The notes below the pieces were generated by a model, which ran no database searches, had not been told where the DNA came from, and worked only from the letters and a program-made list of their open reading frames with translations. Positions 39,122-45,750 of a stretch of DNA of 64,000 nt are shown piece by piece (the stretch's first letter is position 1; each line of letters starts with the position of its first letter). Source of the DNA: Phyllosticta citribraziliensis (lineage: Eukaryota); contig NW_027117338.1 in NCBI RefSeq assembly GCF_038025025.1, positions 3,162,001-3,226,000 on the forward strand, given 5' to 3'. Both the position numbers and the translations under genes were made by a program.

Positions 39122-40208
39122 ATGACGGGTCCCGAGCGCAAGATCCAGCTTGCCAAAATTGCACACGTCTACTACAAGCACAAGGATTTGGAAAAGGCCC
39201 ACGAGTTTGCGATCGACTTTGGATTCGAAGAAGTCGCGCGCACCAACGACAAGATCTATTACAGAGGCTATGGCCGCGAGCCGTTTGTGTACTGTTTGGT
39301 CAAGGCGGACGAGGACGAATTTGGCGGCACCGCCTTTGCCGTCGAACACGAAGAGGACCTCGAATACGCGTCCAAGATTCTGCCCAACGCCACCGAGGTC
39401 TACGAGCTGAAGGATGCGCCTGGTGGTGGAAAGTGTGTGACATTCAGAGAGCCCGTCGATGGTTTCCTCTGGCACTTGGTGTATGGACAAAAGCTGCGGG
39501 ACGACGAGAGGACTCTGCCGACGCTCAAGTTCAACTTTCCCACCAAGAAGGAGAGAGCGCCAAACACCTTTCAGAGATTTGAGCAGAGGCCTGCGCCGGT
39601 GCACAAGCTGGGCCACTTTGGATTTTGCCATACCGACTGGCAGAAGGCTTTTGACTTTTACCACTCCCACTTCAACCTCAAGCCAAGCGAGGTAAGTAAA
39701 GGCACTCCTGCCACGCATCCCAAAGTCCAAATCACCCTGAACCCACTCTGACCTGCCAAGATTCAATCCGACCCTAAAACCGACAAGCCCTGCATGGTGT
39801 TCAGCCGCCTCGACCTCGGCGACGAGCTCGTTGACCACCACTGCTTCTTCTTTTTCGAGGGACCCAAGGCCCACGTCCACCACTCCTCTTTCGAAACGCA
39901 CGACTTTGACACCCAGGTGCTTGGGCACGACTGGCTGAGACACAAGGGATACGAGAATTTGTGGGGTGTCGGCCGGCACATCATGGGCAGCCAGATCTTC
40001 GACTACTGGTACGATCCTGACCGGTTCGTTCTGGAACACTACGTCGATGGCGACTTGTTGAACGGCAAGGAGGACACCAAGCTATCAAAAGCTACCTTGG
40101 ATACGCTCTACGTGTGGGGTGAGTATCAATCGGGTCTTCTCGTGAAGTGATATGCTGATCAATCTTCTTTGAACAGGACCAGACGTCCCAGACACATTTT
40201 TGGTGTAG
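39122..40208 (+). CDS. Glyoxalase/VOC-superfamily extradiol dioxygenase (trihydroxytoluene oxygenase-like)
   Basis: IAHVYYKHKDLEKAHEFAIDFG, PAPVHKLGHFG, VDHHCFFF, HVHHSSFETHDFDTQVLGHDWL, WGVGRHIMGSQIFDYW, EHYVDGD. Introns at 39692-39760 and 40119-40176. Confidence 0.88.
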
Positions 40209-40565
40209 GGTTGCCGACTTCCGAGAGCCGATTGGAATGGTTGCGATTCTCCACTGCTGCTATTCAGCCCCGATCTTTAGCGGGTACCGCGGTTTCTTCG
40301 CGGGTTTGGAATACTTGATTTCCTCCACAGAATGTAAACTACCCCTGGAAACCCTACATGCAGAGCAACATCCGTTTGTTACGAAAGCCAGAAAATTCAC
40401 GTCGTCTGAGAGTCAAGCCTGATGTCCTTCGCAATTACATCATGTCCAAACCTTACTATCCATGTTCTAGCAAGGCTTGACTGCACGTGGTGATGCCTAC
40501 CGTAGCCTGCGTCAACAGGCAAGCAACAACACGACAAAAACAAAACAAAAAGTAAAACGCAAAAC

Positions 40566-40752
40566 AAAATGGCAGAACGTTAGCAGAGGCCGCGAGTTGA
40601 ACTCTCGACCTCCGCTAACGCCCCCCAGCCCAAGCACTCATTATTAGACCTATATTGTAACAATGCAAGCCGAGTGCCCCTAGAGGTCGGTCACGCTGGC
40701 GTTTCCCAGCCTCGGATAACCTTCACGCAAGCTCTCTCTGGGCCAGTTGCTG
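40566..40752 (-). ncRNA. Candidate RNA polymerase III-type structured ncRNA (~180 nt), family unidentified
   Basis: Minus strand: TATATAAA (40781-40774), A-box-like TGGCCCAGAGAG (40745-40734), three hairpins with G-U pairs, B-box-like GAGTTCAACTC (40604-40594) in a hairpin loop, then repeated T4-T5 runs from 40569. The 5' end is estimated. Confidence 0.6.
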
Positions 40753-43026
40753 ACTATACGCTCGCGGTTTGGATTTATATAGGTGCGTAAAAGGTGGATC
40801 GTGCGTTGGTGGGTAGCTCCCTTCGCACGCCGCCCGTTGCTGCGTCAAACGTCATACCACCGTGGAACATCTCTCGCGCCTTTGATTCTATTACCGTCCC
40901 CTCGGTGATGGCACCGCGGTGACAAGTAAGTCGTACTCGTTGGATGCTGCTCGAATCCAGGCAACGCCTCTCGCCCAACCACCGTGAGCGGAACTCTTGG
41001 AGTCAGATCGCCGCCGTGTCATTTGAGCACCTCTCATTGACGCATGACAATCACTGCGGCGCCGTCCACTACAACCCATTGAACAACAACCCGCGTACCT
41101 CATCGCCCATGTCTCACCTCCTGCACCTCGCCGCCAGACAACATCCACACGTCCACGCCCGCATGCCGTGAGTAGCTTGTCAATTAACATAGCGGCGGTT
41201 GACGTCGCGCCCGGCCCCTCTGGCTTTTTGTACCTCCCATTACGCCGCTCTTTCCACATTGCACACTTTCTTTTCTCCTCCTATTTACACCTAGCTTGGT
41301 TTGTCAAAATGCCGTGGCTGCGCGGGCGCCGCCGCTGTCCATGCGCTTGTCTTTCCACATGAACTTTCCACGTCGACGTTGTGTCCGCCTGTCAGCCTGC
41401 CAATCAACCGCAAAGCAAGTGTAAGTTTGGCCTCGCTTTCGAAGCGCGCATGCTACATTTGGGTATGCTTCGACCTGACTTGCCGCTCATCCGCTCACGC
41501 GCACTACCCGCGGCTCAACCAACGACAGCATCTGGGATCGCTCACAGCATCGATCGGAATCCATCTAGCAACGAGAACGCACCCAAAAGAAGCCCACTCA
41601 ACCACCTCAGACAGCCAGCGCCACAGGCGTCCCGCAGCCTCGTCATCCTCGCACAACCACCTTTGCAGGCAATCGGCAGCCCGGCAACGTCACTCGCGTG
41701 CTTGCGCTGTGCCTAATGGCGCCCTGCTCCTATCCGTCCACCACCGCATCTCCACCACAAGCGTGCTGTAAGCACACCGTGAATTTCCTCTGCTTTTGTT
41801 CTTCCTGTTTTGCTTGCTTGGCGTACCACTTCGCCCGCCTCGCCAGCTTTGGACATGCCCTCTGCTCTGGCTCTCGCTTCTCGCGCAGTACAAGCCGCAG
41901 CTGCCAGCCTTGCTCTGCCCTGCTCTGTCCCAACACGCCTCTTCTGGCGGGCGTTGTTGGCTCTGCTGACGCAGCTTGCAGCATGCAGTGCGTAGTCACG
42001 CAGTAGCGCCGGCAAGCGGCGGCGCGTGCCGATGACACGGTGGAGGGTCGAACGTACTTGGCAGCTGGTGGGCTGGAAGAAAATAGATAGAGACAGATCA
42101 AGGAGGTTGGGGTTTTCGGGTTGCGTGGTGGGATTCAGTCAGGGAGTCTGAGGGACGCGGGGGAACTGGTGGAGCTGACTGGTAAGTAGGCATCGAGGGG
42201 GAAGATGTTGGGTTGTGAGTGATGTGCTTTGGGCCAATGTCGAATGGCAGACTCAATCGACAGAAAAGAAAAATGGAGAGACAGGCAAGACACAGCGCAT
42301 GTTTGGCAGAGTTCCGCTCCACGCCTCTCCGTCGTCGAGGCTCCACAAGGCCTACATGTCCTAAGGTTGCAACTCGAAGCCCACCCCCTCTTCTTCTCTT
42401 TCCTCATCATCATCTCCTCCCCTCATGAAAACACGCACCTAATCACCTAATCTGAGAAGTGAAATCCACAACACGCCCCTCATTTGGATCCCATTCTCAT
42501 CTCAATCGCTCATCTCTCATCTCCCCGCCCCGTCCCACCGCATGCACGCACGCAGCAGCTGACATGCGCGCGCCACTGCCGCAACGACCGCCACCATAGT
42601 ATGCATGGCGCACGCACGCGAGCGACAAGACAGCCTTGTCTCGTGGGCATACGTATGTATGGACGTGCTAGCGGCGAGATTGCCTGCTTTGACTGGTTTT
42701 GCGTTGTTGAGGTGGCTATCCATGGGCGTATGATGGTGCGGAGGCAACTCTGCTCGATTTCTACTAAAGTCTTTGTCGCGGTGCGCCTTTGCGCCTTATC
42801 TCGCCCTCTACGGGCCAGTATAGTACCGCACAGCACAGCACAGCACAGTCCATCCGCAGCCTACCAACCCAACTGCACCCACCACTGCGCTGCGCTGCCC
42901 ATCTCAGTACCTAAATCCAGCACCTGCTATTTGCGCGCCCGCTCAAAACGGTGGTGTCTCAACGTCAGAAGGCTGAGTTGGGCGGCGGCGGCGGCGCAGG
43001 CTCATCAGCGCAACGGACACATGCAC

Positions 43027-43100
43027 ACCTCCCTACCGTACCTCCCAACCTCCCTACCGTACCTCCCAACCTCCCTACCGTATCTCTCAACCTCCCTACC
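43027..43100. repeat. Minisatellite, ~3.5 x 21 bp (ACCTCCCTACCGTACCTCCCA)
   Basis: Units at 43027, 43048, 43069 (2 substitutions) and a partial unit at 43090. Confidence 0.9.
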
Positions 43101-43229
43101 CCAATTACGGCTCAGGGACTTAGGGCCACGCACGCACGCCTTTTCCTCCCTCTCATCCACGGCTCAACTTCTATCGCTACCACTCACCAACCAACAGAGC
43201 AGGCAAGCAAAAAAGCAAAAGCGATCCGT

Positions 43230-43316
43230 TTGTTGGCCAGGACGTGAAATTGAACCCGGGACTTGCCGTGGATGCGACTGTTGCCGCGGCATGCGTTGCC
43301 ACTACACCACCAACAC
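43230..43316 (-). pseudogene. tRNA-like gene / tRNA pseudogene (tRNA-Gly-like scaffold, non-canonical anticodon and T loops)
   Basis: Minus strand GTGTTGG-TGGTGTAGTGGCAACGCAT-GCCGCGGCAACAGTCGCATCCACGGC-AAGTC-CCGGGTTCAATT-TCACGT-CCTGG-CCAACA: acceptor, D, anticodon and T stems can pair. A box is perfect; TTTTGCTTTTTT terminator lies ~10 nt downstream. Confidence 0.65.
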
Positions 43317-43764
43317 GTTTGCATGGGTCCGCTGTATGTGTGTGGTAAGGATTGCACATGTTTATAAAAAGAGGGAGGGAGTGAGAAAGAAAGGTAGAAA
43401 GGAATGAGGGGGAGGCTTTGCGCTGCTGCTGCTGTGCAGATTAGCCTGCGGCCATGCGTGCGACGGTGGCGCCGGCACGACCCGGTGGCGTGCTGGATTG
43501 GGGGTGAGGTCGGATGGGCTCGCCGAGTACCGGTTGTGTGTCTGAAGAATGGTGGGGTGGGATGGGTACGCGATGTGGAAAGGCGATGTAGTGATGAAAT
43601 GCAGTATTGATAACTTTTCTACAAGCTGTACAGTACAGAGATATACACACGACAGAAAGTCGAAACAAAGGACATACGCCATAACCAACCAACAAAAAAG
43701 CAAGCGAAAACCATAGTCTACACAAAGCATACAGCATACAGCAAACGCCAAACCCAACCATCAA

Positions 43765-45750
43765 TCAAGCATGCCAATCCATGCTCCGCCGCCGAATCGG
43801 CTCCAGCGTCGTGTTGGCGACCTTGCTGTGGTCGCCCGTTATCAGAGCACCGGACGGATGCCGCTCAAACTGCCGACAGCTCGCCGTGTCCAGCAGCCGC
43901 GGCGAGCCCGCACAGTTGCCGCTGGGCGTGATGTCCTGCCTGCGGCACGCCGCCAGGTGGTCCGACGGGATCTCGATGCCGCTGCGCTGCAGCTGCTCTG
44001 GAGCCTCGATCATGACGGCGGCCATGCCCGCCGACAGGTGGTACTCCAAATGGCAATGTACTGGATGGCAAAAGAATCGCGTTAGAAGCTGTTTGAGAGG
44101 GTGTAGTATATATAGAATGGTTGGGGTGGGGTCAGGGAATCAGGGGGTGGAGTTTGGGGACGGGACTCACGTAACCAGGCACCTGGGTTGTCGGCGCGGA
44201 AGCGGATAACGACGCTGCCCGAGGGCGCGACATTGACTACGTCGCGGACCATGGGGGTCTCAGACCACACGGCCGTCGACTCGTCAAAGGTGGTATCGGA
44301 GCGCGAGACTACCTGGAACGTGTGGCCGTGAAGGTGCATCGGGTGCCCGACGCCGCCGAGGTCTAAGGAGGTGTTGGACGCGCTGTTGATGACGATTTCG
44401 ACAATGCTGTCCGGCTGCAAAACGTGTGCGTTCACTTGGCCGTAGATGAAGGGATTCGAGGCGGCCGGGCCAGTTGTGAGGGCTGTGTAGAGAGAGGGCG
44501 TCTCGGGAGCGATGTACGAGTCGTTGCCCAGCGTGATACTGTAATACTTTAGCAAGTGAATTTCGATGGGAGCGTTTGGCATACCGGCTTCCAACGTCCT
44601 TGTAGTACAGCTGCCGAGAGTCGAGGACAATCCTCTGATCCACGGGTTCAAGAATCTTTTCTCCCGTCGTCGGCTGCAGCGTAAAGTCGTCACCAGCAAG
44701 AGACTCATCCACGGAGAAATTGTTAGGAACAAAGCGTCTTCCGCCGTAGTTCAAGACTCCCAAGGTCTTGGTACCAGTGATTGATTGCTGTACGGCAAAA
44801 GCATAGTTGCCAGAGGGCTTGTCCAGACCGGTCAGGACAATGTCGTATCTCTGGCCGGGAGTAACCTTGAGGCCTTTCCAAGTTGTTGGTTTTACTGTTG
44901 CTGTTAGTGAGTTTCTTCGAGTCTTCCATGAATAAACTTGCCTGGAACACCGTCGATTGCAACTACTTGAAAGTCGTGCTGGTCTGCAAAAATCAGCCTT
45001 GAAAAGCATTTCAAAGACAACGGTACATACCAAATTCAATGTTTTGAAATGCGAGCGCTCCCATGTTGACTATGCGAATATAGACCTTTTCCCCTGGTTT
45101 CATGTCGATGATGGTGGGCCTCGTAGTGTCGTTCACCAAGTTAGAATCCGGTGATGGCATGATTCCCTGCCTGTTCTCGGGGCCCAGATACTCTCGCAAA
45201 AGATATGGTATTTCCTCGTTGTACCTGAAACAGTCAGCGGCGGCATTTATTCAGACTACCGTCATCCTCACCAGTCCGAAACAGGCAAGATGATTTCCCT
45301 AGTAGCTCCCGACTGAGCTTTGGACGACTCAGGGCTGTTGTCGTGGACAATCATCGGCAAACGCAGTCCATCCGGGTATTGGCCTTTTTCGTGGCTATGG
45401 CACCAATGCGTGCCCGCCGGGTACGCAACAAACTCGTATCGAAAAGTCGATCCGGGGGGAATGCCACACTGGGTAATTTCTCCAGCACCATCCATCTCGT
45501 TGGATCCGCGTTGCCACATGCCGTGCCAGTGGATGCCAGTGGTCTCATTGCCGAGAGAGTTGCGAACATTTGCGATGATGGTGTCGTTGACGTCGACCTC
45601 GAGAGGCGGAGGCGGCCATTGTCCATTGATGCCAATCACAGCACGCTCGTGGCCGTCTGGACTGGCATTAACCCAAGTGATATCCCAGTCGAGCGTCACA
45701 ACCTTGGACAGCCCGAGGCTTGCAAACGAAAGGAGAAGTAAAGAGAACAT
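43765..45750 (-). CDS. Secreted multicopper oxidase (laccase/ferroxidase-like, AA1), 6 exons
   Basis: Signal peptide; copper motifs IHWHG, HWCHSH, HPMHLHGH and WLLHCHLEYHLSAGM. Introns at 45225-45271, 44984-45030, 44895-44941 (GC-AG), 44539-44584 and 44061-44170. Confidence 0.92.

What the first reader, a model, noticed from the sequence alone, without database searches (positions are those of the whole stretch)
40530..40781. Unidentified Pol III-type structured RNA gene (TATA + A box + three hairpins + B box + oligo-T)
Seen on the minus strand, in order: TATATAAA (40781-40774); A-box-like TGGCCCAGAGAG (40745-40734); hairpin 1 GCTGG-GAAACG-CCAGC (40710-40695) inside AGGTT/GACCT; hairpin 2 GCACT…CATTGTTA-CAATATAGGTC-TAATAATG-AGTGC (40677-40634) with a 7-nt bulge and 11-nt loop; hairpin 3, a 19-bp stem CGTTAGCGGAGGTCGAGAG-TTCAA-CTCGCGGCCTCTGCTAACG (40620-40578) whose apex is a B box (GTTCAACTC); then TTTT and further T4-5 runs. 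Nearly all stem imperfections are G-U on the minus strand (A-C on plus), which favours a folded RNA over a DNA palindrome. Established: A box, B box and oligo-T define type-2 Pol III genes. It does not fold as a tRNA and lacks motifs I recognise for 5S, U1-U6, SRP, RNase P or MRP. Inference: a stand-alone ~180-nt ncRNA of unknown function, and the best candidate for a new system here. It could belong to a poorly characterised fungal family (e.g. the Aspergillus Afu_ ncRNAs) or be a SINE head or milRNA precursor.
Basis: partly seen in the sequence, partly recalled or inferred. Interest (0 to 1): 0.8.

Follow-up and report, generated by a model that had tools for sequence, protein, structure and literature searches.

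The report
Unclassified small structured RNA gene
A roughly 190-base stretch between two fungal genes looks like a stand-alone gene for a folded non-coding RNA that matches no catalogued RNA family, but no data yet show that it is transcribed.

Summary
On the minus strand, a TATATAAA that is unique in the 64-kb window sits about 30 nt upstream of a ~186-205-nt region. That region has three hairpin domains and is followed by six T4-T5 runs. The last hairpin is far more stable than shuffled sequence (z -7.5) and folds better on the minus strand. No Rfam 15 family and no tRNA matches.

New here: contigs of a related organism (run X3) carry the orthologue with 5 differences in 180 nt, against 27-32 in 281 nt of upstream flank. 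Two of the four listed changes turn wobble pairs into Watson-Crick pairs. Runs X1 and X3 also hold at least two further loci that share only the 3' module (bulged hairpin 2, hairpin 3, CCAUUUUG tail), with helix-preserving changes.

No transcript evidence could be obtained, and no homologues could be fetched for a proper covariation test.

Best reading (about 0.55): an independent, TATA-driven small RNA gene, probably transcribed by RNA polymerase III, from a low-copy family. The closest gene architecture is Neurospora pri-milR-1. The function is unresolved, either an RNP scaffold or a hairpin small-RNA precursor. Rivals are a relic of a repeat, an Sm-class RNA, and an element of the neighbouring gene's 3' end.

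The parts
40774..40781 (-). TATA box (TATATAAA), about -30 relative to the inferred start
   Evidence: Read. Only copy in the 64-kb window, expected 0.06. Unchanged in both upstream contig versions of run X3, whose nearest listed differences are at 40759 and 40786.
40750..40751 (-). Inferred 5' end of the RNA (A40751 or G40750)
   Evidence: Inference. It lies 30 nt below the first T of the TATA box. In run X3 no difference is listed for 40681-40751, then three fall at 40752, 40753 and 40759. Not mapped experimentally.
40734..40745 (-). A-box-like TGGCCCAGAGAG
   Evidence: 8 of 11 positions of TRGCNNAGTGG (consensus recalled). Matches of this quality are everywhere in the window (2436 with up to 3 mismatches), so it carries no weight on its own.
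40625..40746 (-). Predicted closing helix (40746-40739 with 40632-40625) around hairpins 1 and 2
   Evidence: Present in both the MFE and the centroid structure of 40566-40751: 8 pairs, 2 of them G-U. No comparative support obtained.
40684..40722 (-). Hairpin 1 domain: GCUGG-GAAACG-CCAGC (40710-40695) inside AGGUU/GACCU
   Evidence: -14.8 kcal/mol, z -2.0. It lies in the block 40681-40751, where run X3 has no listed difference. Run X7 holds 3 of the 16 sampled 31-mers, and its only laid contig covers 40690-40834.
40634..40677 (-). Hairpin 2: basal stem GCACUC/GAGUGC, 7-nt 3' bulge UAAUAAU (40646-40640), apical stem 40671-40666/40652-40647 plus AUUG/CAAU
   Evidence: Fold. X3 orthologue changes at 40650 (U-G to U-A) and 40652 (G-U to G-C) strengthen the apical stem; the change at 40643 lies in the bulge. 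Paralogue loose ends show the same base and bulge with a different, UUCG-capped apex.
40578..40620 (-). Hairpin 3: 19-position stem with TTCAA loop; the apex carries a B-box-like AGTTCAACTCG (40603-40593)
   Evidence: z -7.5. Paralogue contigs keep the helix: 40590 G to A makes U-G into U-A; loss of 40593 together with changes at 40592 and 40606 re-pairs the upper stem in a shifted register. The B-box match is at chance level.
40564..40572 (-). CCAUUUUGU: first T run; candidate terminator/La site or Sm-like site
   Evidence: All four paralogue contigs (records 6, 7, 11, 12) align through this stretch.
40534..40569 (-). T/G-rich tail with six T4-T5 runs, a weak (UUUUGU)n repeat
   Evidence: period 6, 6 copies, 71% matches. 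The paralogues' loose ends also carry T6, T7 or T10 within about 30 nt after hairpin 3.

Best explanation
40751 to about 40566-40547 on the minus strand is a stand-alone gene for a small structured non-coding RNA of about 186-205 nt. A TATA box at -30 drives it, and it ends in a cluster of T runs. RNA polymerase III is the most likely enzyme (inferred, not shown).

The RNA has two parts. The 5' domain is a closing helix around hairpin 1 and is the best conserved part between species. The 3' module is the bulged hairpin 2, the 19-position hairpin 3 and a CCAUUUUG tail, and it recurs at a few other loci in the same and a related genome.

The most likely mode of action (inferred) is as a full-length RNP. 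The 3' hairpin plus U tail would be the common protein-binding platform, of the La/LARP or Lsm kind. The locus-specific 5' domain would be the working part. The second option under the same gene model is that hairpin 3 is cut into microRNA-like small RNAs, as with the Pol III-made pri-milR-1 of Neurospora.
For: - Stability: hairpin 3 has z -7.5 and the whole unit z -3.2, with 0 of 200 shuffles as good in each case. Both hairpins fold better on the minus strand.
- Promoter: TATATAAA is unique in the window.
- Conservation: the X3 orthologue contig 40572-40751 has 5 differences in 180 nt, against 27 and 32 in 281 nt for 40820-41100 (Fisher p 0.004 and 0.0007).
- Sharp 5' edge: no difference is listed in 40681-40751, then three at 40752-40759.
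- Unit kept intact: one X3 contig skips 40290-40538 but keeps 40539 onward.
- Nature of the changes: all four listed orthologue changes spare the helices, and two convert wobble pairs to Watson-Crick pairs.
- Paralogues: X1 records 6 and 7 and X3 records 11 and 12 share 40545/40563-40630/40649 with helix-preserving changes and have T runs downstream.
- More distant organism: X7 holds exact 31-mers of the 5' domain.
- Not a known family: no Rfam family or tRNA matches.
- Precedent: Neurospora milR-1 is intergenic, has a ~170-nt primary transcript, depends on a TATA-like element to recruit Pol III, lacks A/B boxes and has a T stretch right after the hairpin (PMC3547838, passages read).
Against: - No evidence of transcription was obtained.
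- The A and B boxes are at chance level.
- No homologue could be fetched as sequence, so there is no alignment and no statistical covariation test.
- All comparative evidence comes from one read-laying run on contigs, with 35 differences and 11 pieces not listed, and each paralogue change rests on one to four contigs.
- One of the two downstream flank contigs of X3 is as conserved (3 of 82) as the RNA body (p 0.71).
- The first three T runs are only T4; from recall, these are weak terminators for fungal Pol III.
- A low-copy shared module with a microsatellite-like tail is also what an old mobile element would leave.
- The 40680 change in X3 breaks a pair of the global MFE fold. That helix competes with the better supported hairpin 2 base.
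Confidence: 0.55

Rival explanations
1. Hairpin small-RNA (milRNA) gene. The whole transcript is only a precursor, and hairpin 3 is processed into ~19-25-nt RNAs loaded into an Argonaute. The paralogues would be a family producing the same or similar mature RNA.
For: The gene layout is the same as Neurospora milR-1-4: intergenic, TATA-like element, ~170-nt primary transcript, T stretch directly after the hairpin (PMC3547838). The only Rfam hits are generic miRNA-precursor models on hairpin 3 (15-17 bits, E 0.8-2.7). Hairpin 3 is the part shared by the paralogues, with its lower stem unchanged in the listed differences.
Against: The stem has only 19 positions. The Rfam scores are far below the gathering thresholds (71-107 bits). 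The 5' domain is at least as conserved as the hairpin, which a mere precursor does not need. No small-RNA data are available. No paper prints either arm.
Confidence: 0.2
2. Relic of a low-copy repeat or retroposon (SINE-like or foldback element), with no present function. The hairpins are old palindromes and the T/G-rich tail is a decayed simple-repeat tail.
For: The 3' module occurs at other loci in X1 and X3. The tail is a weak hexamer repeat. A 9-nt direct repeat flanks 40516-40839, and X7's similarity ends at 40834.
Against: Copy number is low: two extra contigs in X1 at a depth similar to the main locus, and none in the window. The 9-nt repeat is about what chance gives in 600 nt (my estimate, about 0.7 expected). 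No tRNA, 5S or 7SL-like head was found. The orthologue is conserved above the upstream flank, and the changes preserve the helices.
Confidence: 0.13
3. Sm-class small nuclear RNA made by Pol II. AUUUUG after hairpin 3 is an Sm site, and the T runs are incidental.
For: CCAUUUUGU is conserved in all four paralogue contigs although it is unpaired. The TATA promoter and the size fit fungal snRNA genes (recalled). There is a 10-nt identity (TATCCGAGGC) to the human U4 5' stem-loop region, as printed in primers in PMC11083327.
Against: None of the Rfam models, spliceosomal snRNAs included, gives a hit even at E up to 10 on 69-251-nt stretches. The site is flanked by pyrimidines and has no 3' hairpin after it. 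I could not draw a K-turn around the U4-like motif (by eye). Regions able to pair with U6 are missing (recalled U6; not testable here).
Confidence: 0.08
4. Plus-strand element in the long 3' end of the convergent VOC/glyoxalase-type gene (stop at 40150). It would act as a 3'-UTR structure or a terminator region, not as a separate gene.
For: It lies 380-600 nt downstream of that gene's stop codon. Hairpin 3 also folds on the plus strand (-23.4 kcal/mol, z -4.9).
Against: All wobble pairs become A-C mismatches on the plus strand. The TATA box and the T runs are oriented for the minus strand. One X3 contig loses the 249-nt spacer between the gene and the unit but keeps the unit.
Confidence: 0.04

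Closest known systems
Neurospora crassa Pol III-transcribed pri-milRNA genes (milR-1 type; Yang et al. 2013, PMC3547838)
   Same: Intergenic stand-alone unit, TATA-like element, primary transcript under 200 nt, hairpin directly followed by a T cluster, no convincing A/B boxes (passages read).
   Different: No sequence similarity was tested or known. Here a conserved 5' three-way domain accompanies the hairpin. Small RNAs, Dicer/QDE-2 dependence and Pol III occupancy are all untested.
Pol III regulatory RNAs ending in a terminal hairpin and U tail (U6, 7SK, Y RNA class; recalled knowledge)
   Same: Size class, upstream TATA, terminal hairpin plus oligo-U as a likely La/LARP/Lsm platform, and small paralogue families with shared ends and variable parts.
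   Different: No Rfam model of these families matches. 7SK, Y and vault RNAs are, from recall, not described in ascomycetes. This is a resemblance in layout only.
Spliceosomal U4 snRNA 5' stem-loop
   Same: 10-nt identity TATCCGAGGC (human U4 primers in PMC11083327), and a U-rich Sm-like site near the 3' end.
   Different: No hit to any Rfam model, U4 included, on the stretch that holds the motif, even at E up to 10. I found no K-turn geometry and no U6-pairing regions (by eye and recall). Not a U4.
Fungal SINEs
   Same: Internal A/B-like boxes, T-rich end and more than one genomic copy.
   Different: Only a few copies, and they share the 3' part alone. No tRNA-like head. The boxes are at chance level. 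The orthologous position is kept in a related organism.

Membership tests
Type-2 Pol III gene (tRNA-like internal promoter) | A box TRGCNNAGTGG near the 5' end | tested here: inconclusive
   8 of 11 positions at +7 to +17. There are 2436 matches with up to 3 mismatches in the window, so it is not informative. Consensus recalled.
Type-2 Pol III gene (tRNA-like internal promoter) | B box GGTTCRANTCC about 30-60 nt after the A box (spacing recalled) | tested here: not met
   AGTTCAACTCG matches 9 of 11, but 95 such matches occur in the window against 110 expected. It also lies about 140 nt after the A-like box.
Type-2 Pol III gene (tRNA-like internal promoter) | Oligo-T terminator | tested here: met
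   Six T4-T5 runs at 40569-40536. The paralogues have T6-T10.
TATA-dependent Pol III small-RNA gene (Neurospora milR-1 type) | Intergenic, TATA-like element, sub-200-nt unit, T cluster right after a hairpin | tested here: met
   Features of the family taken from PMC3547838.
TATA-dependent Pol III small-RNA gene (Neurospora milR-1 type) | Pol III occupancy or inhibitor sensitivity; 19-25-nt RNAs from one arm | not testable with these tools
   No RNA run on record holds the stretch. No ChIP data.
Sm-class snRNA | Sm site RAU4-6GR between two hairpins; homology to U1/U2/U4/U5 | tested here: not met
   AUUUUG is present but flanked by C and U, with no hairpin after it. No snRNA model hit.
SINE | Many dispersed copies with a tRNA/5S/7SL-derived head and target-site duplications | tested here: inconclusive
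   At least 2 extra partial copies in X1 and at least 2 in X3. None in the window. No tRNA-like head. The 9-nt flanking repeat is near chance. The full genome is not held.
Any Rfam 15 family (4227 models) | Score at or above the gathering threshold | tested here: not met
   0 hits in the window. The best sub-threshold hits are generic miRNA hairpins of 15-17 bits against 71-107 needed.

The most novel reading that the evidence does not exclude
A so far undescribed, lineage-restricted family of small (about 190-nt), probably Pol III-made RNAs in an ascomycete group. The design is modular: a locus-specific, strongly conserved 5' domain joined to a shared 3' module of a UAAUAAU-bulged hairpin, a long hairpin and a U tail. 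On this reading it is a fungal counterpart of the Y/7SK/vault type of RNP RNAs, or a conserved multi-gene family of Pol III-driven hairpin small-RNA genes.
Probability: 0.4. Interest if true: 0.6.

Novelty: new member of a known kind. Interest (0 to 1): 0.45.

Why it matters
Outside yeasts, few small non-coding RNAs of ascomycetes beyond the universal ones are known, and very few stand-alone Pol III-type RNA genes have been described. This locus is a conserved, structured, low-copy RNA family with its own TATA promoter. It would be a concrete and easily tested addition: one Northern blot, one small-RNA library and one deletion would settle it. If hairpin 3 yields small RNAs, it would add a conserved multi-locus example to the poorly supported set of fungal microRNA-like genes. 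If the RNA stays full length, its shared 3' module points to a protein partner that could be found by pull-down.

Tried and rejected
- **Whole genome.** Not held, so copy number could only be glimpsed through contigs of public runs.
- **Expression.** No RNA holder is listed for the stretch. All four runs laid were contigs, two of them only guessed to be RNA. I draw nothing from depth, from contig ends, or from the part 40739-40860 that has no cover in X1.
- **Homologue collection.**
  - Two metagenome scans. The 3'-module pattern gave 0 loci. The 5' motif pattern gave 4 loci, L001-L004, all unrelated on alignment.
  - Two scans of prokaryote genome contigs gave 0.
  - Earlier findings of this scan gave nothing by place, sequence, words or relatives.
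- **Known families considered and dropped.**
  - tRNA or tRNA-like: ARAGORN found 0.
  - All Rfam families.
  - Telomerase RNA for the neighbouring ORF-poor region: no template-like match beyond chance, 9 against 6.4 expected.
  - Resemblances I recalled to U4, U2, U3 box B, Y, vault and 7SK RNAs could not be tested as sequences, because letters from memory are not accepted. Their Rfam models gave no hit. Only the 10-nt U4 identity could be anchored, to primers printed in PMC11083327.
  - K-turn, H/ACA, C/D and hammerhead motifs were looked for by eye and not found.
- **Target-site duplication.** The 9-nt direct repeat at 40507-40515 and 40840-40848 is about what chance gives.
- **Second copy in the window.** None by pattern or by a single-sequence covariance model with filters off.
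- **Literature.**
  - Gao et al. 2021 (PMC8216456): passages and section 17 read.
  - Li and Breaker 2017 (PMC5640933): outline only.
  - Neither text shows a motif I can equate with this one.
  - Searching papers for both arms of hairpin 3 found 0 papers.
Full report
**What is in the sequence.**
- TATATAAA is at 40781-40774.
- TGGCCCAGAGAG is at 40745-40734.
- Hairpin 1 (GCTGG, loop GAAACG, CCAGC) is at 40710-40695, nested in AGGTT/GACCT (40722-40684).
- Hairpin 2 is at 40677-40634.
- Hairpin 3 is at 40620-40578. It has 19 stem positions: 16 Watson-Crick pairs, two G-U pairs and one A-G mismatch, with a TTCAA loop.
- Six T runs follow: T4, T4, T4, T5, T4, T5 between 40569 and 40536.

**Surroundings.**
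The unit lies between a plus-strand VOC/glyoxalase-type gene and a minus-strand multicopper oxidase. The VOC gene's open frame ends at 40150. The oxidase starts from 44085 (Pfam; frames). About 3.3 kb between the unit and the oxidase has no convincing reading frame. The window is ascomycete-like.

**Is it more than chance?**
- TATATAAA occurs once in 64 kb, against 0.06 expected. Six of 100 shuffles had at least one copy.
- Hairpin 3 folds at -33.6 kcal/mol with z -7.5, and 0 of 200 shuffles did as well.
- The stretch 40566-40751 folds at -79 kcal/mol with z -3.22, and 0 of 200 did as well.
Hairpin 3 gives -33.6 on the minus strand against -23.4 on the plus strand, and hairpin 2 gives -13.1 against -8.6.
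- Hairpins 1 and 2 on their own are only about two standard deviations better than shuffles.
- The Pol III boxes do not stand out. B-box matches with up to two mismatches number 95 in the window against 110 expected. A-box matches with up to three mismatches number 2436. The two boxes are also about 140 nt apart.

**Known families.**
- Rfam 15 at gathering thresholds finds nothing in the whole window.
- With E up to 10 on ever shorter stretches, the only hits are generic miRNA-precursor models on hairpin 3 and noise. Those hairpin hits score 15-17 bits, where 71-107 are needed.
- ARAGORN finds no tRNA.
- While reading I recalled short resemblances to U4, U2, U3 box B, Y, vault and 7SK RNAs. 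Letters from memory cannot be sent to a tool, so these stay as leads. No Rfam family, these included, gave a hit at any threshold tried.
- Only one resemblance could be anchored. Primers for human U4 printed in PMC11083327 contain TATCCGAGGC, a 10-nt identity with 40717-40708. I could not draw a K-turn around it.

**Related sequences.**
No genome is held for this window. Two metagenome scans and two scans of prokaryote genomes gave either nothing or four unrelated loci.

The only comparative data come from public runs. Ten runs from seven studies hold some of the 16 sampled 31-mers of 40555-40765. I laid contigs of four of these runs on 40200-41100 at 80% likeness. This output is partial: 35 differences and 11 pieces were not listed.

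**Orthologue.**
- Run X3 (organism B) has a 180-nt contig covering 40572-40751 with 5 differences.
- Its two contig versions of 40820-41100 have 27 and 32 differences plus two gaps each in 281 nt (Fisher p 0.004 and 0.0007).
- The two versions of 40200-40281 have 11 and 3 differences in 82 nt. The RNA body is therefore not better kept than one of them (p 0.71).
- No difference is listed for 40681-40751. Three then fall at 40752, 40753 and 40759.
- The TATA box is untouched in both upstream versions.
- One X3 contig joins 40289 to 40539. The spacer toward the VOC gene is therefore lost or replaced while the unit is kept.
- Run X7 (organism D) holds 3 of the 16 sampled words, and its only laid contig covers 40690-40834 with 17 differences. 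The exact 31-mers must therefore lie in the 5' domain.

**What the changes do to the fold.**
It has:
- a basal stem GCACUC/GAGUGC;
- a 7-nt bulge UAAUAAU at 40646-40640;
- an apical stem rich in G-U pairs.

Of the four listed X3 changes:
- 40650 turns U-G into U-A;
- 40652 turns G-U into G-C (X4 shows this change too);
- 40680 lies 5' of the hairpin.

None of them opens a supported helix.

**Paralogues.**
- In X1, which also holds a contig identical to 40200-40738, two other contigs match only 40561-40649 and 40563-40630. They are 836 and 2885 nt long, their depth is similar to the main one, and they carry 10 and 3 differences.
- X3 has two such contigs, covering 40545-40630 and 40554-40630 with 7 differences each.
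- The change at 40590 is seen in four X3 contigs and one X1 contig. It turns the U-G pair of hairpin 3 into U-A.
- In the 836-nt contig, the G at 40593 is lost; in our copy this G is the mismatch partner. Changes at 40592 and 40606 then restore pairing in the shifted register.
- The loose ends of these contigs show a hairpin 2 with the same GG/UC step and the same UAAUAAU bulge, but a short UUCG-capped apex.
- The second basal pair reads U on the 5' strand in X1 and A on the 3' strand in X3. If these are the same lineage, that is a C-G to U-A exchange. I could not see both sides in one contig.
- All paralogues carry T6 to T10 within about 30 nt after hairpin 3.
- There is no further copy in the window. 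A single-sequence covariance model with filters off finds only the locus itself, at 158.9 bits, and its palindromic image.

**Interpretation.**
The best reading is an independent gene on the minus strand. It has a TATA box at -30, a start near 40751, and an end at the first T4 (186 nt) or the first T5 (205 nt).

The polymerase is inferred. Three things favour Pol III:
- the persistence of T runs in every copy;
- the size of the unit;
- the precedent of Neurospora milR-1 (passages of PMC3547838). That gene is an intergenic ~170-nt Pol III transcript. It needs a TATA-like element, lacks A/B boxes, and ends in a T stretch right after the hairpin.

Function is open. I favour a full-length RNP in which the shared 3' hairpin and U tail bind a common protein and the conserved 5' domain does the specific work. 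A hairpin small-RNA precursor is the second option.

Less likely readings are:
- a relic of a low-copy repeat;
- an Sm-class Pol II RNA, with AUUUUG as the Sm site;
- a plus-strand element of the VOC gene's 3' end.

**Limits.**
- There is no evidence of transcription.
- The comparative evidence rests on one call and on contigs.
- No alignment could be built.
Identity with one of their unnamed intergenic motifs is therefore not excluded (PMC8216456, passages and section 17 read; PMC5640933, outline read).

Noticed in passing
window 40800-44080: About 3.3 kb between the RNA unit and the multicopper oxidase gene has no convincing reading frame. Frames 40894-41280(-) and 42466-43407(+) have no Pfam hit. 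It holds a 21-nt tandem repeat of 3.5 copies at 43027-43100. A 2196-nt contig of run X1 starts at 40861.
   Followed up: partly
window 40613-40630 and 40694-40711: Hairpin 1 and the stretch leading into hairpin 3 are 72% alike over 18 nt (GGCUGGG..CG..AGCG on the minus strand). This suggests an internal duplication and allows an alternative small hairpin that would compete with hairpin 3 and the closing helix.
   Followed up: no
window 40120-40176 and 40159-40422: After the VOC gene's frame there is an intron-like stretch (GTGAGT ... CTGAT ... ACAG) followed by an 87-codon open frame ending at 40422. If this is real, the gene's 3' end would reach the RNA unit's tail. One X3 contig skips 40290-40538, which argues against it being coding.
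   Followed up: no
window 40507-40515 and 40840-40848: An exact 9-nt direct repeat flanks the unit together with its promoter. X7's similarity ends at 40834. By my estimate this is about what chance gives, but it is worth checking as a target-site duplication once other copies are in hand.
   Followed up: partly
window 40411-40420 and 40473-40482: A perfect 10-nt inverted repeat, 52 nt apart, lies downstream of the unit.
   Followed up: no
run X1, 2885-nt contig at the equivalent of 40630: This paralogue contig ends 9 letters beyond the match, and those letters look like the start of a sequencing adapter (recalled). That may mark a physical end of molecules there.
   Followed up: no
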